64,000 nucleotides of DNA, taken from NCBI GenBank assembly GCA_000004985.1, contig GG738895.1; one strand, given 5' to 3'. How positions within the stretch are numbered: position 1 is the first letter of the stretch; each line of letters starts with the position of its first letter. The notes under the pieces were generated by a model that did not search any database, was not told the DNA's origin, and saw only the letters and a program-made list of their open reading frames with translations. This document shows, piece after piece, positions 6,410 to 36,869 of the stretch. Source of the stretch: Naegleria gruberi. Taxonomy: Eukaryota. The translations under genes were made by a program, and so were the position numbers.

Positions 6410-7902
6410 ATGTCTCGACAATTACTTAGCAGTGGTGGTTTGTTGATTGGAGTTGTGTTGTTTGTGGCTACAATGTTACAATCATTTACTACTGATCAAT
6501 ATCATCATTCAATGGTTGAAGCCACTAAAATATCAACCAATGCATTTCCGAATAATTACAAGGAGAAAGTTGATCAAATTTGCCAACACATCATCAAAGG
6601 AGAAGAAAAGGGAAAGCTCTATGATTTATTGGCCTTCTTAACAGATACTTATGGCAGTAGATTGGTTGGAACTGAAGGTTTTGATTTGACTTGCAAACAT
6701 TTTGCCAAACTAATGCAAGCCAATGGTTTTGATAATGTTCATACTGAACCTGTTTATAATATTACACATTGGAGAAGAGGAGAACCTGAATCATTAATCA
6801 TGCATGAACCTAGATACATTCCACGTATGGAAGTATTGGCATTAGGTACAAGTCCTCCTGGTTCAGTAAAATCAGAAGTTATTGTGCTGAAGAGTTATGA
6901 AGAATTGGATCAATATGATGTTAGAGGAAAGATTGTACTTTTCAATCTTCCTTGGCAAGGTACTTATGGTAAATCAGTAATTTTTAGAACTAGAGGACCT
7001 GCAGAAGCTGCTAAAAGAGGAGCTGCTGCATGTTTAGTGAGAAGTGTGACCCCATTCTCAATTTATTCAGCTCACACTGGTGGAACTAATTTCCAAGACG
7101 ATGAAAAGAGGATTCCAGCTGCCACTATTACTGTAGAAGATGCTGACATGATTGAAAGAATGATTAAGAGAGGTCAACGAGTTGTCCTGTCATTGAAACT
7201 CAATTGTGAAAATCTTCCACCTCTAACCTCTTACAATACACTTGGTGAAATTACTGGAAGTACCTATCCAAATGAAGTTATTGTTGTGGGAGGACATATG
7301 GACTCTTGGGATTTGAATTCTTGTCCTATGGATGACATTGGAGGAATTTTGACATTCTATGAAGGTATGAAAACACTTATCAAACTTGGATTGAGACCAA
7401 AGAGAACTATTCGATTGGTTGCCTTCACTGCTGTAAGTAATCTGAAATTTAATTAAGATTAAATAATTTAAAATAGGAAGAATTTGGTGGTGGTCGTTTT
7501 GGTGGTATGAGTTATGTCAAAGAGCATGAAAAGGAACTCAAAGATCATATTCTTGCAATTGAATCAGATGCAGGACCATTTAAACCTCTTGGATTCGAAT
7601 TTACTGGAGGAGAGGAAGGTAGAAAACTTGTTGAACTAATTGCCAGTACATTATTCACAAATATCAACACAACACAAGTTACAGATAATGGTGGTGGAGC
7701 TGATGTTGATCCTCTTTATCAAGTAGCTGGTATTCCAGTAATGTCACCTAAAGTAGAAGGAAGTAAATACTTTTGGTTCCATCACTCTAAGGCTGACACA
7801 ATGACAGTTCTTAACACTGATGATTTAGATTTGGCAGCTGCTCAAATGGGTGCTTTCTTATATGTAGTTGCTGATATGGATGTAAGATTCCCAAGAAATT
7901 AA
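6410..7902 (+). CDS. M28-family zinc peptidase (carboxypeptidase Q / PGCP-like aminopeptidase). 2 exons (6410..7432, 7477..7902)
   Basis: N-terminal signal anchor. M28 metal-ligand motifs GGHMDSWD and EEFGG, plus ...FWFHHSKADT. 44-nt intron gtaagtaatc..aaaatag joins the frames. Confidence 0.85.
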
Positions 7903-13338: not shown

Positions 13339-15423
13339 ATGCCAGTCTTTTCTTTCTTCAAGAAGAAGGAATCTTCTTCATCAAACACTAAACCAAATTC
13401 TGACTTGGCTAAGAAACTTCAACAAAAAGGTTAGTTTTCTATTCGAAACCAACATTAGAATAATTTTATTGTTTTAATAGATGCTGGTTCTTGGACAGTC
13501 AATGAAGTTGGTATTTGGTTAGATTTAGTTGGTTTAGGAGAATATAAAGTAAGTTGTTGTAGTTTCTAATAACATTAAACTAAACTATTTAGCCAATATT
13601 TATTAACAATTCAATTAGTGGTCAAGAATTACTCGAATTAGGAGAAGAAGGTTTGTTGATATTATTATTATTTCCATTAGTTTCTAATAGATATGTTGTG
13701 ATGATCATTAATTGATGTTTTTATTCGAATCTTTCTAAATTGAACTAAATATCCGTAATATTATCCGTTACTGTCATCACCCATTGTTAATTCCCATCTC
13801 TTTGAATACAATCATTATACATTCATTTATAATACTTTTTACAAATATATATTTAATATTACAATAATAACACTATTTATAATAATACTAATACATACAA
13901 TAATAATACAATAACATGTACATACAATTATATAAAAATAGATATGAATCAACTTCAAGTGACAAAACTTGGTCATCGTAAAAAGTTTAAAAAACTTGTT
14001 GAAGCACTTAAAAAGAATTCAAATATTACAAATTTCCTTGAAACACTTTCAGAAAATGATTCCGATATGATTCCACCAACAAGTAGTAGTAGCAGTTCTA
14101 ATAATATTAATAATAATAATAATGGTACTGCTAGTAATAGTACAGGTGGAGGTGGAAATTTCACACAAACAGCTCAACCATCTAATTTCCAAAATAGTAA
14201 CTTGTCTGAATTGAGTGCAGGTAGTTCAGGAGGTGGTGTTTCAGCTGATTTAGTTTTTAAATGTTATCATGCTGAAGATGTTCATTTAATTGCATTGAAA
14301 AGAGATAGAGCTACTTTTAGTGAATTGAAATTAAAGATTATTGAAGAATATAATTGTTTAAAACCAATTATTAAATACCGTGATACAGAAGGTGATTTTA
14401 TTAATATTAGAAAGGAAGAAGATTTTAATATTTGTAAACAAAATGTTCCAGTTGACTCTGCTATTAGATTATATATTACAACTGAAAATGATGCAGATGA
14501 CACTTCAAGTCAAACAAGTGGAAGTGAAATGTCATCATCAAATACTGCACAACTTCATGCTCAACGTCATACAGATCAATTTCCATCAATTTATGCCTCA
14601 GATGAAGAACCAGAAATGGATGATGGAGCTGTTTTCTTTGATGACTTTGTTGATTCTGTAATTATTATTACAGATGATAAGATTGTTCAATATATGAACA
14701 AATCTGCTGAAAAGGCATTTGGTTATACAAAGAAGGAAGTTATTGGAAGAAATGTCAAGATTTTAATGAGTAATACTCATAGAATTCAACATGATAATTA
14801 TGTTGATAATTATTTAAGAACTGGTCAAGCTAAAATTATTGGATCTGGAAGGTAAGTTTTTATACTATGAATAATTTCTCTCTAATACACAACTTTACAT
14901 CTAATTAGAATGGTTGAAGCTCGTGCTAAGGATGGTTTAATTTTCCCAATTTGGTTGAGTGTTGCTGAATCTGCTTGGTTAGGAAGACATGCTTTCACTG
15001 CTACAATTCAAGATTTAAGAAAGGATAAGAGTAAGCATAGTAATTCTTCTGTTACTTCTCTTTTGGAAAACCTTGTTGATGCTGTCATTATTATTGATCT
15101 AAAATGTAATATTTGTTTCTTAAACAAGTCATCTGAAAAGATGTTTGGTTATAATAGAGATGAACTTATTGGAAAGAATATTAAACAACTCATGCCTGAG
15201 AAGTATTCCATTAATCACGATTCATATGTTTCTCACTATTTGGAAACTGGAGAAAAGAAAGTTATTGGAAGAGGTAGAAAAGTTACTGCTAAAGATAAGA
15301 GTGGATCAATGTTCCCAATTTGGTTGAGCGTCAGTGAAACTAAATTCTCAGGAGAACGATCATTTGTTGGTACTATTCAGGATCTAAGAAAGGAAAACTC
15401 TTTGGACAAGATGTTGCACTAAA
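13339..15423 (+). CDS. SAM + PB1 + two tandem FixL-type heme-PAS domain protein. 5 exons (13339..13429, 13481..13548, 13593..13650, 13942..14852, 14909..15423)
   Basis: Spliced SAM domain: WTVNEVGIWLDLVGLGEYKPIFINNSISGQELLELGEEDMNQLQVTKLGHRKKFKKLVEALKK. PB1 with Lys and OPCA motif: VFKCYHAEDVHLIALKRDRATFSELKLKIIEEYNCLKPIIKYRDTEGDFINIRKEEDF. PAS-A: DSVIIITDDKIVQYMNKSAEKAFGYTKKEVIGRNVKILMSNTHRIQHDNYVDNYLRTGQAKIIGSGRMVEARAKDGLIFPIWLSVAE...TIQDLRK. PAS-B: DAVIIIDLKCNICFLNKSSEKMFGYNRDELIGKNIKQLMPEKYSINHDSYVSHYLETGEKKVIGRGRKVTAKDKSGSMFPIWLSVSE...GTIQDLRKE. Both PAS domains align to the FixL heme domain ([54 protein letters not shown]). All splice phases were verified. Confidence 0.7.
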
Positions 15424-24702: not shown

Positions 24703-27700
24703 ATGGGATCCAATGTTAGTAGTGTAAAGTTACCGGCAAATGATAATTTGCCTTTAGAGGATGAAAAATCATCAAGAGTGGAAATACCAAATATGCCACC
24801 AACAAGAAGGAAAACAATAACAACATTTGATAATCAGATGAGTAGAGTATCAATAGTTTCTATACGGTATGATTCACCAATTAATGTTGGAGAGGATATT
24901 AAATCGGATATTACATTTGAAATGTTTGATCTCGCCATGGCTAGAGTTTTTACATTTCTTGATATAACTTCTCTTCTAATGTGTTCGAGGTAAGAGGGTT
25001 ATTTGAATTATTATTAATTAACATTTTCAAAAAGTGCTTGTAAAAAGTTTAGAGAATTAGAAAACAAATATCAAGATGTTTTGTGGCAAAACTTGTATAA
25101 ATTTCATAAAACCAACATGATGTACATTTGTACAAATCCTTCACAAGCTCTTCAAATGATGGAGGAAACAAAGAAAAAACACCAAGCATCTGATAGTATT
25201 AGGAAAGGAATGGAAAGAAATGAGCTTGGTCTTTTGGTAAATGATCCAATTTTGTTGGAATTGAAAAAGGATGTAAAAAATTGGAAAGAAGAATGCTTGA
25301 ACTATTGTAAGTTTGAATTGGAATATTTACTGTAAATAACCATATTTAGATTTTGTAAAAAGGAAATTCATATCTTCTCAACAAGAATATTTACTTTTGG
25401 CAAAACTTAAAGAATTACTTTTAACTCAACCTGAAAATCCAACAAGGAGGAAATCTTCAGTAGTTGGACATCTTTCCAATATTGGTAATACTGATTCACC
25501 TATTGCACAGAACGATATTCATACAGCCAGAAATAGTGATAGCAGCGATAGTAGTGACGATTTTAAATTTGATAGTATCGACGATGATTTCTTAAAGAAA
25601 AAGAGCATGGAATTCATGATGTATAATAATGTAAAATCTTCATTGATTGATGACAATCCCTTTGGAAGTGATGATGATGAGGATAACGACACTCAAAAAC
25701 ACAACGAGGAAGCTTTAAATCCAAATCTTAATAGGTGGAAAGAAGCAGAATCAGATTCCGATGATGATAATTGGTTGGAAGATGAAAAAGATGATGAGAA
25801 ATTAGAAGTAGATTTAAAGAGTCCAAATCAAATTTTACAAGAAAAGATTGGAATGACAAACAGTGAATCTGAAGAAAACTTTTCGACTCCTTTAGTACTT
25901 AGAGGAGAGCCAATTAATAATAGTAGTATAAAACATTTTGAGGAAAACTCAGATGAGGATGAAGACTGGTTCAATGACGATGATGAAAAATCAAAAGATA
26001 GCTCGATAATTGAGCCTATTGTCAAGAAGGGTGAAAGAGCATCCGAAATTGAAAGTCAAACTAAGCTTCATGTTAAAAATGACTTTTCCGCACTTGATAT
26101 CAGTGAAGTCAAGATAGAAATAAGTTCCGAGAATGATAATAACAAATCATTTAGAAATTCCTCTTCCTCCAATCATGTAACCTTAAAACTTCCTTCCATT
26201 GATGATAGTGATGATGAACATATTCTAGGCCGTGAAGCATCTGCTTCAGAGATCAAGCTGGTATTCTCAGATGATTTAGATTCTGATAAGAAGAAGATAT
26301 CTACACCAAAGACTAAAGATGAAAGTGAAAGATCTGCAAGATCTTCATTCGAAGAAGATATTGATGATTCTAGAGGTTCACACAAAAAGTCTTCATTCCT
26401 AATTTCTAAATCATCCAATGATGATGACTCTGATCCTTGGTATTCAGATGAAGAGAGTACAAAAAAGACTGTTCTTCATGTTGAATCTGAAAATTTAAAT
26501 ATTAAGAAAGAAGAAACTGACTCGGACACAGATGATTGGTACAGTGAAAGCGAAGATGACAAGAAGAGTAGTCATTTTGGATTAATGCTAAGAGATAATG
26601 AAGAATCACAAAAGGATTCCTCATCATGCTACTCTGTTTCAAAACTTGGATTTGGTAGTAATTTACCAAGTTTTATTGGCAGTCAATCTGATACTGCTAG
26701 AAGAATCAAAGAGGCAGAGAATCTTACATTGGATGAACTCATCACGGATCTTACTGATGTAACAAAACTGAAAGAAACTTATCTGAATAGATCAAATGCT
26801 GAAACCCAACAATTTTACAGCAAGTTATTATCTTTCCATCAGAGAACACAGGTATTCTGTGGAGATGAACCAGTTGAGGATACAATGCCTGATGCTATGG
26901 TATGTTCAAATTAATTTTAAATTCTAACTTTAATTTAGATGGCACCAAATGATTGGCCAACAACCTTATCTTTCTTCCAACAAAAGAAAGGTCAAGGTAT
27001 TGTTATAAAATTGATTTACATTGAAGAGATTCAGACACCTTACCCAGCAAAACTCTGTAACCCTGTACTTAAATTCTTTGGATCAAAATCAAAAGAGATG
27101 AGAGGTGTTTGTTCTGGATTGATTATTGGACCATTTTTACTTCAGTGGAATAAGACTCACTCATTAATTATACCAAGAAAATTAGTTTCAGACTCCTACT
27201 TGTATCAAACAAGAACTCATCGTATTGCAGAGCTTTTTAATGTTACTTTGGATTCAATTATCGATACCATTGCTAAAATTATTGTAGAGTGGAATCTCAC
27301 AAAACTGTATCATGATCAATTACAAAATTGTCAACATTTTGTTGAGAAAATAATTGATTCTCTTGGTATCAAGAAGGTTTTGGAAACTGAAAGAATAGGA
27401 AAAACGATTTGTAAGTTTTATTCGAGTTATCTTGATAATTTTTACACCAACAGTCAACTATAATACTATCTTGAATAGAGAAGGAAAAGGGTCAATAGAA
27501 TTCAATTTTGCTGACCAAGCTAAACATGACAAGTTATATGCATGCTTGGAAAAGAAGTATGGATCTGGAAAGGTTACCTTTGAAACTCACAAACAATTAG
27601 ATGAATTTATGAGATCAGTTATTGCTGAAGATCCAAACTTTACAATTACTCACCACCAAGATTATTCCTTACTTGTATTCTTTGATCAACTTTTCTGGGC

Positions 27701-30361: not shown

Positions 30362-32641
30362 TTATTGATAGGTTCTTAATAATTCTTCCCACATTGATAA
30401 GAGTGCATCAATTTTCATTGTTCCAACTAGAGTACCATCTCTCTTTCTGACACTCACTGTCTTTTCTTGCATTTCCTTTTCTCCCAAAACCAAGATAAAG
30501 TTATATTGAAGAACTTGGGCATCTCTAATCTTTTTCTTCATTGTCTTATCAGAAAGATCAACATCAATGAAATAGTTGGAGAAAACTCCTCTCTCTTCAG
30601 CAGTCTTGAAAATTTGATCCTTAACCTCTTTACAGTAATCAACAAGGGAAGCATTTTCAGCTGAGACTGGACAAATAAAACATTGACGAGGATTAAGCCA
30701 GAATGGCCATCTTCCTGATAAATGTTCAGTCAAGAGAGCAATAAATCTTTCAATACTTCCCAAAATAGCTCTGTGAATAATGACTGGTGTAATGAGTTGG
30801 TCATTTTGACTTTGATACTTGAGATTAAATCTACGAGGAAGTTGGAAATCTAATTGAATAGTAGCACATTGATGGAATCTTTGTAAGCTGTCTTCAATTT
30901 GAATATCAATCTTTGGACCGTAGAAAGCACCATCACCTTCGTTGAGTTTCCAATTGTATCCATCCAAGCATTCCTTAAGAGATTGTTCAGCTTTATCCCA
31001 CATTTCAATATCACCAACAAACTTTTCTGGTCTTGTTGATAAATTGAATCTCAAATTAAATCCAAATATTTCACTATAAACAAATTTAACAAATTGTAAA
31101 CAATTTTCAATTTCACTCTTAACTTGGTCATGAGTACAGAAAATGTGAGAATCATCTTGATGGAATCTTCTGACACGAGTGAGACCTGTCAAGGAACCAC
31201 GTGGTTCATTTCTATGGAGTGGACTGAAATCAGCCAATCTTACAGGTAATTCTCTATATGATCTAATCTTACTATCAAACATGAGACAGTGGGCTGGACA
31301 ATTCATTGGTTTGATTCCAATAGTTTCTTCCTTGTGTTGAGTTCCTTCAATTACAGTGAACATATCGTCCTTGTAATGTTGCCAATGGCCAGACGTTTCC
31401 CATAATTCTTTTTGGAACATTTGTGGAGTAATAACTTCATCATAACCTCTCTTTCTATATTCTTTTCTGATAAATTCAACCAATTTGTTAAACAGTCTAG
31501 TACCATGAGGTAAGAAGAATGGTGTTCCAGGACTGTATTCATGGAAGAAGAATAAATCTTGCTTTTTAGCAATAAGTCTGTGATCCCTCTTGAGAGCTTC
31601 TTCAATAAGTGTTTGCCAATCCTCCAACTGTTTAGCTTTAGGGAAAGAAATACCATAAACACGTTGTAAAAGTGGAGATTTTTCATCACCCTTCCAATAG
31701 GCTCCACTCAATTTTGTAAGTTTTACAGCTTTGATCATTGAAGTATTTGGAATATGAGGACCTCTACATAAATCTACAAGATTACCACATTTATACATGG
31801 TAATTGGTTCACCAGATGGAATTTTCTCTATTATATCCAATTTAAATTGATTATATTTGAAAATTTCTCTTGCCAATTCCTTTGTAATGTGAATTTTTTG
31901 GAATGAATGTTTTTCTTTCACAACTTGTTGCATGAATTTTTCTAATTCTTCCAATTGTTCAGTTGTAATTCTTTCATTATTTTCAAGGAAACCCTCATAA
32001 AAGAAACCACCATTTAAAACTTGAGAAGCTTCTTTTGAAACCAAAGGTGGACCATCACATAATTTAAGTGATGAACCAAACTTTTGTTCCAAAGCACAAC
32101 CAAGAATGTGAGCTGTTGAATGCCAAAATACTTCCTTTCCTTCAACACTTTCAAATGTAAAGAATTCAATATTATTATTATTTGATTCTTGATTATTCAA
32201 AATTTCAGAAAATGTATCATTCATATCAGTGAGCTTTCCATTAATTTTACAAACTAAAAACTCGCTTACTTCATTCTTATAAAAGACTTCATTAGCTAAT
32301 TGAAGTGGTGTCTTTTTCAAGAATTCCGAGTCTACAACAATTGATAAAGGTTTACTCTTTTCTCCAAATTTCAATACTAAATTTAAATTGCTAATATTAA
32401 TATTATTAGGCTTGATATTTTCTTGTTGTTTTAATTCATTCCAATGTTTTGATCGTTCTTCAAAGGCTTGTTGTTGCTTGTTGGAGAGTGAAAAGTATCT
32501 TTGAGTGGAAATTGAATTGGTCATTTTCATCATCTTGATTGCATTACTAACAGAGGCTGTTGTTGTTGTTGTTGCAGCACTGCTAACAAGAGAATTGGTA
32601 CAACTCTTCAATACTCTTCTTCTCATCACGGCGTTTAACAT
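30362..32641 (-). CDS. thrS: Threonyl-tRNA synthetase (class II), with N-terminal presequence-like extension
   Basis: TGS/second-additional-domain region with editing HxxxH...CxH signature. Class II core FLPHGTRLFNKLVEFIRKEYRKRGYDEVITPQMF..ELWETSGHWQHY, motif 2/3 regions, C-terminal anticodon-binding domain. N-terminus MLNAVMRRRVLKSC.. (possibly organellar). Confidence 0.9.
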   Translation of the reverse strand: MLNAVMRRRVLKSCTNSLVSSAATTTTTASVSNAIKMMKMTNSISTQRYFSLSNKQQQAFEERSKHWNELKQQENIKPNNINISNLNLVLKFGEKSKPLSIVVDSEFLKKTPLQLANEVFYKNEVSEFLVCKINGKLTDMNDTFSEILNNQESNNNNIEFFTFESVEGKEVFWHSTAHILGCALEQKFGSSLKLCDGPPLVSKEASQVLNGGFFYEGFLENNERITTEQLEELEKFMQQVVKEKHSFQKIHITKELAREIFKYNQFKLDIIEKIPSGEPITMYKCGNLVDLCRGPHIPNTSMIKAVKLTKLSGAYWKGDEKSPLLQRVYGISFPKAKQLEDWQTLIEEALKRDHRLIAKKQDLFFFHEYSPGTPFFLPHGTRLFNKLVEFIRKEYRKRGYDEVITPQMFQKELWETSGHWQHYKDDMFTVIEGTQHKEETIGIKPMNCPAHCLMFDSKIRSYRELPVRLADFSPLHRNEPRGSLTGLTRVRRFHQDDSHIFCTHDQVKSEIENCLQFVKFVYSEIFGFNLRFNLSTRPEKFVGDIEMWDKAEQSLKECLDGYNWKLNEGDGAFYGPKIDIQIEDSLQRFHQCATIQLDFQLPRRFNLKYQSQNDQLITPVIIHRAILGSIERFIALLTEHLSGRWPFWLNPRQCFICPVSAENASLVDYCKEVKDQIFKTAEERGVFSNYFIDVDLSDKTMKKKIRDAQVLQYNFILVLGEKEMQEKTVSVRKRDGTLVGTMKIDALLSMWEELLRTYQ

Positions 32642-32846: not shown

Positions 32847-33182
32847 ATGGCACTGTGGACTTTAATTAAAATCATTGTCTTGTTGGTGAATGCTGTGGCA
32901 ATTTTGAATGAAGAACGATTTTTGAGAAGGAGTATGTGTTTATAGTAGTGTATACATAGTACTAATATAAAATTGATCAATTGTTCAAAAATTAGTCGGA
33001 TTTGGATACAGACCAGAAGTAGTGGCGGAAGAAAGTATAAAGGCTAGAATTATTAATTTATTACATGCTGTTAGGACACTGCTGAGAAGTAAGTCTATTT
33101 ATATTAATTGGATCTTATCAGAATAGTTCCTCTGATATTTATTAATGCTTTTGTTATTCTGATTTCAATGATTGTTGGATAA
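32847..33182 (+). CDS. yos1: IER3IP1/Yos1-family small ER/Golgi membrane protein. 3 exons (32847..32931, 32996..33088, 33127..33182)
   Basis: Spliced product MALWTLIKIIVLLVNAVAILNEERFLRRIGFGYRPE...ESIKARIINLLHAVRTLLRIPLIFINAFVILISMIVG (78 aa) aligns with human IER3IP1 (VNAIAVLHEERFLKNIGWG...IRSVRTVMRVPLIIVNS). Two phase-1 GT..AG introns. Confidence 0.75.
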
Positions 33183-33250: not shown

Positions 33251-34710
33251 TCATAAATTAATGGATTTGGAATGTAAATTATTTTGACAATTTTTCAATG
33301 TTTGGAAATATTCTTTTTTAATTAAAGAATGGATACTTTTTTTTGTGGATGATATTATAAATATAATCTCTATCTAATTCTTTATAGTCATCAATGTAGC
33401 TTTCTAAATTTTCCCTTGCTTGTTCAAATTCCCCATCTGCTAGACCTTCGAGGACATATTTTTGAATATAAGTATATTTCTCTAAATGGTATAAAGTTAA
33501 TTATTTTGGATATTCAAACTTACTGAAATTGGTGTCAAACAATTTCAAATACTGTTCAAGATTATTCCTAACACCAGTGGAATTATTTGCTATATGAACA
33601 ATATTATTGGAATTAAATAATTTACAAGCATTTCCAATATTTCTTTGAGAATTGAATACGTTTTGGTAAATTAACTTTCTATGATTCAAATAATTAGCAA
33701 TACTATCCTTATTAATATTGTAAAAATCAGTTCCTCTCATTGATATACATGTTGAAATGGATTTTGCATTATCAATTCCATCGATTGTCAATGAATATTG
33801 ATTGGAAAATAACTCTTTACAATCCAAATTGTTTCTTATACTCATTAAACTATTAGAAATAATATTCATTGATGGGTAGGGAACTAGTTTTGATGAAATT
33901 TGTGAAAAACTTTCATTTGAAAATAGACATGGTTCTAAAAATGTTGAAATCATTTGTGAAATTACTTGATTAATAGTATTATACTCAATATTTTCTATTT
34001 TCAATTCATATTTACAATAATCATATATCAAATCATTTCGGATTGAAGATATATTGGACAGATATTCTCTCATAGTCTCCATTGATAAAACCATATTATA
34101 CAATTCAAAAGTTGTGGAACTAGCCATTTCACTTAAACTTGGAAACACACTAAATGATGACTAATTTAAAATACTCACACAATATGTGCTGCTATTCGAA
34201 ACTTACTATTGTAACTCCTTTTAACCATGACTTGGATCTCAATTGTTCCAATATTCTACAAATCATTCCACTACCTGTTCCTCCTCCAATGGAATGAGTG
34301 AAAATAATTCCATCCAAATGATCACAATTTTCAACCATTTTACGAATTCTCTCTTCAATATAATTAATATAATTATTTCCAAAAGAAAATTGAGATCTTA
34401 AAGAGGTAATTGAAGATTCATAATCATTAATTATATTTTCTTGTTTACAACAATATTTTAACTTATTTTCACAATGCGTTAATCGAATTTGTTGTGTAAA
34501 AGTGTTATGATCAATAATATTAGAATCGGAATCAATGAATAAACTTCGGGATGTGAATGTATTTTCCTTTCTAATACTTTCTTCAAATAATTGATAAGTA
34601 TTAGATTTAAATTCTGTGTTACAAAATAAATCCCATATGGATTTTCCTATCTGACATCCACATTCTCCTAAGTGAATGAAAATTAATTCACCACTGTTGT
34701 TATTTGACAT
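33251..34710 (-). CDS. Divergent tubulin-superfamily protein (delta/epsilon/zeta-like). 3 exons (34710..34207, 34160..33524, 33481..33251)
   Basis: N-terminus ELIFIHLGECGCQIGKSIWD (tubulin GQCGNQIG region). Tubulin signature IFTHSIGGGTGSGM. C-terminal helix KKYTYIQKYVLEGLADGEFEQARENLESYIDDYKEL aligns with [34 protein letters not shown]. A 42-nt intron beginning GTAAGT removes an in-frame TAA. Confidence 0.7.
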
Positions 34711-34796: not shown

Positions 34797-36869
34797 TTAA
34801 GGTTTCCAATAACTTGACATCCATCGAGACCAATAGGACCAAATAGTTTCCTTCTTACCGTATAAAACTTTCATGGAATTTTCATCAGAAACTGTAAATG
34901 GAATACCTAATAATTTTGCATATTTCAATTTCATTTCGTATCTTTTAACATTTAAGGAATCTTCTTCAAGGAGAAAGCAACAATCATCATAGATCATTTT
35001 TAACTGTTCCTGATCAGTTATGTTCAATTGGTTGGCTATCATTACTCTACGCTCTTTCAATTGAAAATATAAACTAAGCATACTTTTTGAATACCTTTGA
35101 TCAGTTTTTTCAAGTTCTTCTAAATTGTTCAACATTGAAGTTGCTTCTTTAAATTTACTCTCCAAATCATCATGTTTTTTGTTGAAATGAAAAGAATTAA
35201 GTGCCTGAGCTTCCAAAGAGAGAATTTTTCTTGTTTTCTTGTCATTTAAAGTTTGTTTCGAAATATCCTTATCCACTCTAAGTTGTAAGGCTTCTGAAAA
35301 GAGTTTTTCTGAGAATTGAGGATTATCTTTCAATACAAATTGACCAAATTTCAATAGTGATTCAACATTGTCTGGTCTATAACATGAATATTTTGAAAAG
35401 TAGGAAAACGCATTGTCCTTATCTCCCAAATGTTGATAAATGAGGCAGAGTTGATGATATACTTGATCAATATTCCAAAATCCTAACCTCTCACATTCTT
35501 TGAAATCATTGATTGATTCATCAGTCATGCCTAATTTGAGATATATGCACCCTCTTCTATAATAGGCACAAGAGTATTTAGGATCTAAATTAATGCACGT
35601 TGTTATTACTTTTTCTGCCTTTTGTAATAGATTTTTTCTCAGTTCCTCATAATTGTCCTCTTTAGAATCAATTTTTCGACTTTGGTCAAAATAACATTTT
35701 GCCAATTTTTCATATGATAATTGGAAGTAAGGAAATATTTCAATAGATTTCTCAAAGAAAATGATTGCCTTTTTAAATTGCCTATTTTTCTGATAGTAAC
35801 ATCCTTGAATAACACACTTAATTAGAGATGAATCATCAAGTTGACTAATAGAGTCTAGAAATTCATTCTCTGTTTTGTTGGCATGAGGACTAGCTAATAT
35901 GTCAACTTTAGTATCAGAAGATCGATCACTTAAACCTAAAACATATGCGAAGAATGAAACTGCTTCACTCATTGTTGCTGCTGTAATTCTTTCATGCTCT
36001 TCAATCTTAATACATGATAGAATCAATAATTGTAACCCTGAAGATTCCAATCTTTGCTTAATTTCTTCTTTACCGTTTTGAAGTATGTGATTATCAATAT
36101 CTTGTTGGTTTTTAAATTCTGATTTCTTGTTAAAACAAGTTTCAGTATCTTTGGTAATTAATCTGTACAATGTTACCCCAAAACACCACACATCCCCGCT
36201 AGAACCAACCTCATATGCTTCCTTTCCATTTTTCATATGTAATGGTGGCCTATGTGCTGGTTTACCAACACGCATACTACTCTCAATTGTTCGATAACTA
36301 AGGTCCTGGTCCATTTGAATGCTAAACTCAAAGTCACCCAATCTAACTTTAATGATACCAGTAGTTCTATTAAAAGACTCAATGAATATATTATCCTCTG
36401 AGATATCTCTGTGAATAATTTTACCTTCTGCTGAGTGAATAGAAACAAGTGCTCTTGATATTTGGAAAGCAATTAAAATACAAGTTTCTCTACTGAGATC
36501 TTCTGTTAAAAGTTTATCCAAACTACCTCCCTCATAAAATTTCATTAATGTGTAACAATAATAAACACCTTTAAAGAATTCAAACATTTCACATGAATAC
36601 TCTTTGGATTGAGAATTGTAAAAAGCACTCTTTTCTCTTTCAACAATTTCATTTTCCGAACCGTAATCTTCTCCAGGTTCATTCTCATAATTGACAATTT
36701 TAACAACAGCCCTTATTTCTGGGGATTGTCCTTTTACCATTTTGCATTGTAACAAGTTGCATTTGTCTCTTTGTTCCATGAATGAATAATCCATCAACTT
36801 GATATCTCTAAGAGAGAGGTACTCTTCAAATTCAGCAAGACGCCATTTTGATCTTTGGTAGTTTGACAT
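34797..36869 (-). CDS. Protein-kinase-like (probable pseudokinase) domain + C-terminal TPR repeats
   Basis: Kinase fold with degenerate motifs: HRDISEDNIFI (HRD present, catalytic-loop Lys replaced), VRLGDFEFS (DFE instead of DFG), no clear Gly-rich loop. C-terminal half has TPR-like repeats (AIIFFEKSIEIFPYFQLSYEKLAKCYF; KYSCAYYRRGCIYLKLG; NAFSYFSKYSCYRPDNVESLLKFGQ). Confidence 0.6.
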   Translation of the reverse strand: MSNYQRSKWRLAEFEEYLSLRDIKLMDYSFMEQRDKCNLLQCKMVKGQSPEIRAVVKIVNYENEPGEDYGSENEIVEREKSAFYNSQSKEYSCEMFEFFKGVYYCYTLMKFYEGGSLDKLLTEDLSRETCILIAFQISRALVSIHSAEGKIIHRDISEDNIFIESFNRTTGIIKVRLGDFEFSIQMDQDLSYRTIESSMRVGKPAHRPPLHMKNGKEAYEVGSSGDVWCFGVTLYRLITKDTETCFNKKSEFKNQQDIDNHILQNGKEEIKQRLESSGLQLLILSCIKIEEHERITAATMSEAVSFFAYVLGLSDRSSDTKVDILASPHANKTENEFLDSISQLDDSSLIKCVIQGCYYQKNRQFKKAIIFFEKSIEIFPYFQLSYEKLAKCYFDQSRKIDSKEDNYEELRKNLLQKAEKVITTCINLDPKYSCAYYRRGCIYLKLGMTDESINDFKECERLGFWNIDQVYHQLCLIYQHLGDKDNAFSYFSKYSCYRPDNVESLLKFGQFVLKDNPQFSEKLFSEALQLRVDKDISKQTLNDKKTRKILSLEAQALNSFHFNKKHDDLESKFKEATSMLNNLEELEKTDQRYSKSMLSLYFQLKERRVMIANQLNITDQEQLKMIYDDCCFLLEEDSLNVKRYEMKLKYAKLLGIPFTVSDENSMKVLYGKKETIWSYWSRWMSSYWKP

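What the first reader, a model, noticed from the sequence alone, without database searches (positions are those of the whole stretch)
33251..34710. Divergent tubulin whose reading frame is rescued by a 42-nt in-frame intron containing a TAA
The six-frame track splits this gene into ORFs that stop at 34192 and 33501. A naive reading continues in the same frame after 33501 through a TAA, which looks like a pseudogene or readthrough. In fact the TAA lies inside a perfect GTAAGT...TTTAG intron of exactly 42 nt (33523-33482). Splicing restores KKYTYIQKYVLEGLADGEFEQARENLESYIDDYKEL, the conserved tubulin C-terminal helix. Together with GECGCQIG (N-loop) and GGGTGSGM this is a real, highly divergent tubulin (delta/epsilon/zeta class), the kind associated with centriole/basal-body triplet microtubules. 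That is notable for an organism with an acentriolar centrosome.
Basis: seen in the sequence. Interest (0 to 1): 0.55.

Follow-up and report, generated by a model that had tools for sequence, protein, structure and literature searches.

The report
Known divergent Naegleria alpha-like tubulin gene
This is a real three-exon gene for a very divergent alpha-like tubulin of the amoeboflagellate Naegleria gruberi; the gene model is already public, its two tiny introns are ordinary for this genome, and it is not a delta/epsilon/zeta centriolar tubulin.

Summary
On the minus strand, a 42-nt GTAAGT…TTTAG intron (33523-33482) carries an in-frame TAA. A second intron of 46 nt (34206-34161) lies upstream. 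Removing both gives one ORF of 434 aa (not 445), with its stop codon at 33320-33318 (not 33251).

The spliced protein is 100% identical over its full length to GenBank XP_002672843.1 / UniProt D2VT78, "alpha-tubulin [Naegleria gruberi]". So the organism is Naegleria, which builds canonical basal bodies, and the gene model is already public. It also appears in the full tree of Velle et al. 2022.

The delta/epsilon/zeta assignment is not supported:
- Pairwise scores favour alpha (110-134 bits) over epsilon (57-65) and delta (42-58).
- In NJ bootstraps it joins alpha-tubulins in 92% of replicates and delta or epsilon in 0%.
- N. gruberi has separate delta, epsilon and eta genes.
- Its nearest relatives are other N. 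gruberi-only paralogues at 32-36% identity.

The fold is a confident tubulin fold (pLDDT 86). GGGTGSG and the base-contact residues are kept. The T3 motif, the catalytic T7 Glu (now Gln), the lateral-contact loops and the acidic tail are lost.

Introns of 38-64 nt with internal stops are the norm in this window. Function and expression remain untested. Interest is low.

The parts
34207..34710 (-). Exon 1 (504 nt, residues 1-168). ATG at 34710-34708, preceded by an in-frame TAA 15 nt upstream. Holds the T1 loop GECGCQIG (34668-34645), the degenerate T3 segment ESSITSLRS (34419-34393) and the T4 signature GGGTGSG (34287-34267).
   Evidence: Pfam Tubulin PF00091 over residues 8-218, 119 bits, E 3.6e-34
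34161..34206 (-). Intron 1: 46 nt, phase 0, GTAAGT...AATTAG. If retained, the frame stops at TAG 34194-34192.
   Evidence: The junction gives ...GVTI|SSFSVFPS..., matching the tubulin consensus FxVxPS. The spliced protein is identical to XP_002672843.1.
33524..34160 (-). Exon 2 (637 nt, residues 169-380 plus the first base of codon 381). Holds T5/T6 (ELYN), H7 (Y228, N232) and the T7-H8 segment NESFSQISSKLVPYP (33917-33873). Q255 (33902-33900) sits at the position of the alpha-tubulin catalytic E254.
33482..33523 (-). Intron 2: 42 nt (a multiple of three), phase 1, GTAAGT...ATTTAG. This is the intron the finding is about.
   Evidence: ungapped HMMER alignment to alpha-tubulin across residues 352-426
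33501..33503 (-). In-frame TAA inside intron 2. It would truncate the protein after ...NFSKFEYPK if the intron were retained.
33318..33481 (-). Exon 3, coding part (164 nt, rest of codon 381 to residue 434 plus the TAA stop at 33320-33318). Encodes H11-H12 (KKYTYIQKYVLEGLADGEFEQARENLESYIDDYKEL) and a basic/hydrophobic end ...HKKKYPFFN with no acidic tail.

Best explanation
The locus is the already-annotated Naegleria gruberi gene for XP_002672843.1 / D2VT78, labelled 88213 in the tree of Velle et al. Its structure is complement(join(33318..33481, 33524..34160, 34207..34710)).

Two ordinary short spliceosomal introns (46 and 42 nt) must be removed to give a 434-aa protein with a complete tubulin fold.

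The protein is one of the lineage-specific, very divergent alpha-like paralogues of N. gruberi. It appears to be one of the 'bonus' tubulins of Fritz-Laylin 2010 and Fulton 2022; that match is inferred from the descriptions, because I could not see the original figure.

Inferred mechanism:
- It probably still binds guanine nucleotide. T4 GGGTGSG, D69-equivalent, E183, N206, Y224 and N228 are kept.
- It has lost the T3 gamma-phosphate-sensing motif. DAANNYARG has become ESSITSLRS.
- It has lost the T7 catalytic Glu (E254 to Q, D251 to S).
- It has lost most of the H1-S2 loop, the M-loop and the S9-S10 loop, and it has no acidic C-terminal tail.

It is therefore unlikely to be a standard, GTPase-activating, laterally bonding microtubule lattice subunit. 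More likely it is a specialised or non-polymerising tubulin-fold protein, perhaps partnered with one of the equally divergent beta-like paralogues.

Shown: gene structure, identity with the public model, family and alpha-side placement, fold, and the pattern of kept and lost residues. Inferred: nucleotide binding, lack of lattice assembly, and that the gene is functional.
For: - Identity. The spliced product is 100% identical over 100% of its length to 'alpha-tubulin [Naegleria gruberi]', accessions XP_002672843.1 / EFC40099.1 / D2VT78.
- Family. Pfam Tubulin, 119 bits against a cut-off of 33.
- Solved structures. All 60 best PDB sequence hits are alpha-tubulins, E about 1e-36.
- Exhaustive HMMER search. 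No relative is closer than 36% identity. The best full-length hit is a second N. gruberi 'alpha-tubulin', XP_002679827.1. A third paralogue, XP_002679287.1, is sister in my NJ tree.
- Class scores in bits: alpha 110-134 for full-length references, gamma 109, beta 88, epsilon 57-65, delta 42-58.
- NJ bootstrap (500 replicates): pairing with the paralogue 99.6%; grouping with alpha 92.4%; grouping with delta, epsilon or both 0%.
- Published ML tree. It falls in an N. gruberi-only clade with support 99.2/1/100, on a terminal branch of 1.48 substitutions per site.
- Literature. [quoted passage not shown]
- Fold. AlphaFold mean pLDDT 86.4, pTM 0.89. Foldseek top hits have TM about 0.82; those from tubulin-RB3/stathmin-type crystal entries are all chains A or C, which are the alpha chains by my knowledge of those entries.
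- Residue table and loop deletions.
- Coding signal. RSCU correlation with the neighbouring genes is 0.85 in frame against 0.63-0.65 out of frame.
- ORF maintenance. Under neutral decay along a branch of 0.5-1.48 amino-acid substitutions per site, 18-54 nonsense hits are expected, giving P(none) of 1e-8 to 3e-24.
- Intron size. Candidate introns of 38-64 nt join long ORFs throughout the window. One of them is confirmed by a Pfam M28 peptidase domain match that spans its junction.
Against: - I found no transcript or protein evidence for this gene. The ID 88213 does not occur as a gene ID in the supplementary text of the 2024 RNA-seq preprint that is held (its main table was cut when stored), and it occurs only in the tree file of Velle 2022.
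- The CDS is unusually AT-rich: GC 26% and GC1 28.5%, against 31-33% and 39-42% in the neighbours. Several normally invariant tubulin motifs are gone. Both features fit relaxed constraint.
- No orthologue above 36% identity turned up in any other species, so conservation cannot be used to argue for function.
- My tree is a simple NJ tree. It has vertebrate-only delta and epsilon references, one beta, one gamma and no zeta.
- The published ML tree puts all long-branch sequences, including N. gruberi delta and eta, in the same poorly resolved region.
Confidence: 0.8

Rival explanations
1. It is a delta, epsilon or zeta class tubulin with a role in centriole or basal-body triplet microtubules.
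For: - It is very divergent, lacks an acidic tail and gives no Pfam Tubulin_C hit, as is also true of human delta-tubulin.
- Naegleria does build triplet basal bodies.
- In the published ML tree, the long-branch N. gruberi sequences, including delta and eta, sit in the same loosely resolved region.
- Zeta-tubulin was not among my references.
Against: - phmmer scores against epsilon (57-65 bits) and delta (42-58 bits) are about half those against alpha (110-134 bits).
- 0 of 500 NJ bootstraps join it to delta, epsilon or both, and 92% join it to alpha. Long-branch attraction would favour the opposite result.
- All 60 best PDB sequence hits are alpha chains, and the identifiable Foldseek crystal-structure hits are chains A/C.
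- N. gruberi has its own delta (jgi_69007), epsilon (jgi_44774) and eta/zeta (jgi_65724) genes. Fulton 2022 describes the gamma, delta and epsilon genes as conserved and single. Delta and eta fall outside the 88213 clade in the published tree.
Confidence: 0.03
2. It is a decaying or functionless paralogue: a duplicated alpha-tubulin gene that is no longer used but has not yet been hit by a stop or frameshift.
For: - Loss of the T3 motif, the catalytic Glu and several loops.
- Base composition drifting toward intergenic values.
- No orthologue elsewhere.
- No expression data found.
- It belongs to a family that Fulton calls a 'bonus' of unclear use.
Against: - The 434-codon ORF is intact, and both introns keep consensus GTAAGT...TAG sites.
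- The chance of escaping nonsense mutation under neutrality over the observed divergence is 1e-8 or less.
- There is frame-specific codon-usage signal.
- AlphaFold gives a confident, complete tubulin fold with retained T4, N206, Y224 and N228 and a well-conserved H11-H12.
Confidence: 0.12
3. The 42-nt segment is not spliced. The gene yields a truncated 389-aa product, or the TAA is read through.
For: The segment's length is a multiple of three, so the downstream frame is preserved. No transcript data were available to me.
Against: - Perfect GTAAGT donor and TTTAG acceptor, and a length typical of the other introns in the window.
- Homology to alpha-tubulin runs ungapped across the junction, with no room for 14 extra residues.
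- Truncation would remove H11-H12, the best-conserved C-terminal part.
- Standard stop codons terminate the neighbouring genes.
Confidence: 0.02

Closest known systems
The 'bonus' highly divergent alpha-tubulins of Naegleria gruberi (Fritz-Laylin et al. 2010, Fig. S4B, as described by Fulton 2022, PMC9081340; leaf 'XP_002672843.1_88213' in Data S3 of Velle et al. 2022, PMC9036621)
   Same: The leaf in the Velle tree is this very gene. The description also fits: annotated as alpha-tubulin, very divergent, with gaps and additions, N. gruberi-specific, and clustering with paralogues 88206, 72133 and 71268. That it is one of the seven listed in Fig. S4B is my inference.
   Different: Nothing structural. 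What I add is a residue-level account (T3 and T7 loss, loop deletions, kept T4 and base contacts), a direct test against delta and epsilon, and a structure prediction.
Naegleria mitotic alpha-tubulins (alpha6 of Chung et al. 2002; jgi_58607 and jgi_55745 in Velle et al. 2022)
   Same: They are divergent alpha-tubulin paralogues of the same organism, used for a dedicated array. They are an example of the multi-tubulin hypothesis.
   Different: [quoted passage not shown] This protein is only about 24-33% identical to canonical alpha, has no detectable orthologue, and lacks the catalytic Glu and the lateral loops.
Noncanonical alpha-like and beta-like tubulins of ciliates (Tetrahymena BLT1-6; Paramecium theta, iota and kappa)
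   Same: They are lineage-specific, long-branch tubulin paralogues with substitutions in GTP-binding sites, interaction surfaces and tail motifs. They fall in the same poorly resolved part of tubulin trees as the N. gruberi divergent sequences. Paramecium hits are among this protein's nearest non-Naegleria neighbours.
   Different: BLT1 and BLT4 were shown by GFP tagging to enter nuclear spindle microtubules. Nothing is known about localisation here, and the loop deletions here are more severe.
Short stop-containing introns whose length is a multiple of three (Jaillon et al. 2008, Nature, from my own knowledge; Roy and Penny 2007, PMC1950532, abstract seen)
   Same: This is a 42-nt intron that would preserve the frame if retained, but it carries an in-frame stop. 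Retention would therefore give a premature stop rather than a protein with an insertion.
   Different: No surveillance mechanism was tested here. In this AT-rich window, internal stops are expected by composition alone, and 13 of 15 candidate introns have one.

Membership tests
Tubulin/FtsZ superfamily, eukaryotic tubulin branch | Significant match to the Pfam Tubulin GTPase domain (PF00091), including the G-rich T4 signature GGGTGSG | tested here: met
   119.1 bits against a cut-off of 33, E 3.6e-34, residues 8-218. GGGTGSG at residues 142-148.
Tubulin/FtsZ superfamily, eukaryotic tubulin branch | Complete two-domain tubulin fold including the C-terminal domain and helices H11-H12 | tested here: met
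   Pfam Tubulin_C is not detected by sequence. However, the AlphaFold model has pLDDT 86.4 and pTM 0.89 and aligns over about 440 columns to solved tubulin chains with TM about 0.82.
Alpha-tubulin | Groups with alpha-tubulins rather than beta, gamma, delta or epsilon in similarity and phylogeny | tested here: met
   The top 60 PDB hits are all alpha. Scores are alpha 110-134 bits, gamma 109, beta 88, epsilon no more than 65, delta no more than 58. NJ bootstrap support for grouping with alpha is 92.4%. Caveats: simple method, and a poorly resolved position in the published ML tree.
Alpha-tubulin | Catalytic Glu254 (and Asp251) in the T7 loop, which activates GTP hydrolysis on the neighbouring beta subunit | tested here: not met
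   E254 is Q255 and D251 is S252.
Alpha-tubulin | T3 loop motif (D/G)AANN(Y/W)A(R/K)G contacting the gamma-phosphate | tested here: not met
   Replaced by ESSITSLRS. N101 becomes I, N102 becomes T and G106 becomes S. This region has the lowest model confidence, pLDDT 57-73.
Alpha-tubulin | Canonical lateral-contact elements (H1-S2 loop with K40, full-length M-loop), the alpha-specific long S9-S10 loop, and an acidic C-terminal tail | tested here: not met
   Deletions of roughly 20, 15 and 13 residues at these three loops. The C-terminus is ...HKKKYPFFN.
Delta-tubulin / epsilon-tubulin | Clusters with named delta or epsilon tubulins; is the organism's orthologue of that class | tested here: not met
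   0 of 500 bootstraps. It gives the lowest pairwise scores of all classes. N. gruberi delta is jgi_69007 and epsilon is jgi_44774.
Zeta (eta) tubulin | Clusters with zeta/eta tubulins | not tested
   I could not obtain a named zeta sequence. Indirect evidence: the N. gruberi eta gene is a different gene (jgi_65724), and it falls outside the 88213 clade in the published tree.
Misato / FtsZ / bacterial tubulin-like | Best match to Tubulin_3 (Misato), FtsZ or Tubulin_2 models rather than Tubulin | tested here: not met
   Tubulin_3 gives E 0.08 and 13 bits against a cut-off of 30. Tubulin_2 gives 20 bits against a cut-off of 27. Both are below threshold and far below PF00091.
Spliceosomal GT-AG introns of this genome | GTAAGT/GTATGT donor, (A/T)TAG-type acceptor, length in the local range, and junctions that restore a homologous reading frame | tested here: met
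   Both introns fit. Fifteen candidate introns of 38-89 nt in the window share the pattern. Pfam domain matches support the spliced products of the M28 peptidase and Yos1 genes. Transcript evidence could not be obtained.

The most novel reading that the evidence does not exclude
The seven alpha-like and five beta-like 'bonus' tubulins of Naegleria, of which this appears to be one, are not decaying copies. They would form their own heterodimers or a non-microtubule assembly, such as a capping, templating or rootlet/basal-body-specific structure. These proteins have shed GTPase activation, the lateral loops and the tails. That would make them a third tubulin system, alongside the flagellar and mitotic sets.
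Probability: 0.1. Interest if true: 0.6.

Novelty: already known. Interest (0 to 1): 0.15.

Why it matters
As a finding it mostly clears the record. The broken-looking ORF is a correctly annotated spliced gene. The stop-containing intron is routine for Naegleria. The supposed centriolar tubulin in an acentriolar organism is neither centriolar-class nor from such an organism.

The one open point is what the extremely divergent 'bonus' tubulins of Naegleria are for. Fulton (2022) explicitly lists this as unanswered. The residue-level picture here is: nucleotide pocket largely kept, T3 and the catalytic T7 residue lost, lateral loops deleted, H11-H12 conserved. That gives a concrete hypothesis to test by tagging and biochemistry once Naegleria genetics allow it.

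Tried and rejected
- The first word-indexed homology search returned only the protein itself. The exhaustive representative search was needed to see relatives.
- The look-up of encoding contigs holds no record of this protein, so I got no genomic context and no paralogue gene structures.
- Accession searches in the paper library found nothing in main texts.
- Expression look-ups for 88213 and related IDs in the supplements of Velle 2022 and the 2024 preprint found only the tree leaf. The numeric string also matched inside unrelated numbers. The preprint's expression table was cut when stored.
- A threonyl-tRNA synthetase on scaffold_24 in that table does not match this window's gene order, so it did not help locate the gene.
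- The Fritz-Laylin & Cande 2010 microarray paper and the 2010 genome paper are not held. Two other papers I opened gave no intron-length statistics for N. gruberi.
- The afdb50 fold library was unavailable.
- Alternative acceptor TTTAG at 34150 for intron 1: rejected, because exon 2 would then read TGT GTT TCC AAG TTT AAG TGA.

Full report
**1. What is in the sequence**

On the minus strand, the mechanical ORF list shows two ORFs: 34192..34710 (172 aa, starting MSNNNSGELIFIHLGECGCQIG) and 33501..34148 (215 aa).

Reading the DNA and assembling it gives a three-exon gene:
- Exon 1, 34710-34207.
- Intron 1, 34206-34161: 46 nt, GTAAGT…AATTAG, phase 0.
- Exon 2, 34160-33524.
- Intron 2, 33523-33482: 42 nt, GTAAGT…ATTTAG, phase 1.
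- Exon 3, 33481-33318, with the TAA stop at 33320-33318.

Intron 2 contains the in-frame TAA at 33503-33501 that ends the second ORF. The spliced product is 434 aa, not 445, and the CDS ends at 33318, not 33251.

The other possible acceptor for intron 1 (TTTAG at 34150) gives an immediate TGA. The acceptor at 34161 gives …GVTI|SSFSVFPS…, which fits the tubulin consensus.

**2. Whose gene it is**

The spliced protein is 100% identical over 100% of its length to a database protein named 'alpha-tubulin [Naegleria gruberi]'. Its accessions are XP_002672843.1, EFC40099.1 and UniProt D2VT78_NAEGR. The window is therefore Naegleria gruberi DNA, and the three-exon model is the public one.

The same accession is a leaf, 'XP_002672843.1_88213', in the full maximum-likelihood tubulin tree of Velle et al. 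2022 (PMC9036621, Data S3).

**3. Are the introns unusual?**

No. A scan for GTA[AT]GT…YAG segments that join long open frames finds the tubulin introns among a population of similar ones in the same window. Examples: 44 nt (7433-7476), 57 nt (14852-14908), 43 nt (25307-25349), 39 nt (26900-26938), 43 nt (27411-27453), 41 nt (38707-38667), 40 nt (10893-10854), 51 nt (5519-5469) and 47 nt (3827-3781).
- Removing the 44-nt one yields an M28 peptidase whose Pfam domain match (residues 276-465) runs through the junction.
- Two more introns, of 64 and 38 nt, assemble a Yos1 protein.
- 13 of 15 such introns carry an in-frame stop if retained, including all four whose length is a multiple of three.

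At this base composition, about 8% of random codons are stops. By my estimate, a stop in a 14-codon intron is therefore the expected outcome.

The splice junctions themselves are well supported:
- HMMER alignments to alpha-tubulin cross residue 380/381 without a gap.
- The AlphaFold model has pLDDT 90-97 in the 10-residue blocks around both junctions.

**4. What kind of tubulin**

Pfam finds the Tubulin GTPase domain (119 bits, cut-off 33) but not Tubulin_C. All 60 best matches among solved structures are alpha-tubulins, E about 1e-36.

An exhaustive HMMER scan of 1.84 billion cluster representatives finds 3014 relatives, but none closer than 36% identity.
- The best full-length hit is another N. 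gruberi 'alpha-tubulin', XP_002679827.1.
- A third N. gruberi protein, XP_002679287.1, is the next neighbour in my tree.

The query sequences were recalled from memory and used only as bait; all analyses used the database sequences they retrieved.

phmmer scores of this protein:

| Class | Bits |
|---|---|
| alpha (full-length references) | 110-134 |
| gamma | 109 |
| beta | 88 |
| epsilon | 57-65 |
| delta | 42-58 |

In a neighbour-joining analysis with 500 bootstraps:
- it pairs with XP_002679827.1 in 99.6% of replicates;
- the pair joins the alpha-tubulins in 92.4%;
- it joins delta, epsilon or both in 0%.

Long-branch attraction would push the other way, so this result is conservative.

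The literature agrees:
- N. gruberi has its own delta (jgi_69007), epsilon (jgi_44774) and eta/zeta (jgi_65724) genes. Fulton describes the gamma, delta and epsilon genes as conserved and single.
- Its genome holds 13 alpha and 9 beta genes. [quoted passage not shown]
- In the published tree, this gene sits in an N. gruberi-only clade (support 99.2/1/100) on a branch of 1.48 substitutions per site.

Zeta was not tested directly, because I could not obtain a named reference.

**5. Anatomy of the protein**

AlphaFold with a 66-sequence alignment gives mean pLDDT 86.4 and pTM 0.89. Foldseek aligns about 440 columns to solved tubulin chains at TM about 0.82. The hits from tubulin-RB3/stathmin-type crystal entries are all chains A or C, which are the alpha chains by my knowledge of those entries. 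So the whole tubulin fold, including the C-terminal domain, is there.

Mapped onto alpha-tubulin numbering:

Kept:
- G10, G13, Q15 and G17 (T1).
- D69.
- S140 and GGGTGSG (T4).
- E183, N206, Y224, N228 and N249.
- H11-H12 is well conserved.

Changed or lost:
- Q11 to E, and E71 to D.
- The T3 motif DAANNYARG becomes ESSITSLRS. This is also the lowest-confidence part of the model.
- D251 to S, and the catalytic E254 to Q.
- The H1-S2 loop (with K40), the M-loop and the S9-S10 loop are cut by roughly 20, 15 and 13 residues.
- The C-terminus is basic and hydrophobic (…HKKKYPFFN), with no acidic tail.

A GTP-binding signature is present. A T7 loop is present but catalytically disabled.

**6. How it most likely works (inference)**

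The phosphate-binding T4 loop and the base-contact residues suggest that guanine nucleotide is still bound.

Loss of the gamma-phosphate sensor and of the activating Glu argues against the usual GTP-hydrolysis cycle. Deletion of the elements that make lateral protofilament contacts argues against being a regular lattice subunit. Absence of the tail removes the usual site of polyglutamylation and of many motor/MAP contacts (established tubulin knowledge).

The best analogy is the ciliate noncanonical tubulins. Two of these (Tetrahymena BLT1 and BLT4) were shown to serve only nuclear arrays.

**7. Is it functional at all?**

In favour:
- The ORF is intact and both introns keep consensus splice sites.
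- Codon usage correlates with the neighbouring genes only in the proper frame (r = 0.85 against 0.63-0.65).
- Neutral decay over the observed divergence would be expected to introduce 18-54 nonsense mutations, giving P(none) of 1e-8 or less.

Against:
- The CDS is markedly AT-shifted (GC 26% against 31-33%).
- No orthologue exists in the databases.
- I found no expression data.

**8. Context**

The gene is flanked upstream by a kinase-TPR gene that ends 86 bp before its ATG. Downstream lies a convergent three-exon Yos1 gene, and beyond that a threonyl-tRNA synthetase gene.

Naegleria amoebae divide without centrioles, but flagellates build canonical triplet basal bodies de novo. [quoted passage not shown] So even a genuine delta or epsilon tubulin would not have been notable here.

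**9. Verdict**

The gene and its family are already catalogued. Only their function is open. Interest is low.

Noticed in passing
window 32847-33182 (+): An unlisted small three-exon gene convergent with the tubulin gene. Exons are 32847-32931, 32996-33088 and 33127-33182; introns are 64 nt (GTATGT..AATTAG) and 38 nt (GTAAGT..GAATAG). The 77-aa product matches Pfam Yos1 (PF08571) end to end, E 3.9e-26.
   Followed up: yes
window-wide, e.g. 7433-7476, 14852-14908, 25307-25349, 26900-26938, 27411-27453 (+); 38707-38667, 10893-10854, 5519-5469, 3827-3781 (-): There is a population of very short (38-64 nt) GTAAGT/GTATGT…TAG introns joining long ORFs. 13 of 15 contain an in-frame stop if retained, including all four whose length is a multiple of three. 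GTAAGT occurs 25 times on both strands against about 43 expected from base composition, and roughly half the occurrences are at ORF-joining positions.
   Followed up: partly
window 34797-36869 (-): A single-exon 690-aa protein kinase with C-terminal TPR repeats ends only 86 bp upstream of the tubulin start codon. Any tubulin promoter must therefore sit in, or overlap, the 3' end of that gene.
   Followed up: partly
window 30362-32641 (-): A 759-aa threonyl-tRNA synthetase (tRNA_SAD, class II core and anticodon-binding domains) has an N-terminal extension rich in R, S and T (MLNAVMRRRVLKS…). This looks like an organellar targeting peptide.
   Followed up: no
window 33318-34710 (-) against its neighbours: The tubulin CDS is much more AT-rich than the adjacent genes (GC 26% against 31-33%; first-position GC 28.5% against 39-42%). 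It is close to the intergenic composition of about 26%. This fits relaxed or unusual constraint.
   Followed up: partly
proteins P0289 (human delta-tubulin) and P0003 (XP_002679827.1): Pfam Tubulin_C (PF03953) is also not detected in human delta-tubulin or in the closest N. gruberi paralogue. It is found in epsilon-tubulin, in XP_002679287.1 and in XP_002670562.1. Absence of that Pfam hit is therefore not diagnostic of class.
   Followed up: yes
residues 76-92 of the protein, window about 34485-34435 (-): A Cys-rich, lineage-specific stretch (THCENKLKYCCKQEN) replaces the usual H2-S3 region, and the T1 loop also holds two Cys (GECGCQIG). Model confidence is lowest here (pLDDT 57-73). Its significance is unknown.
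   Followed up: no
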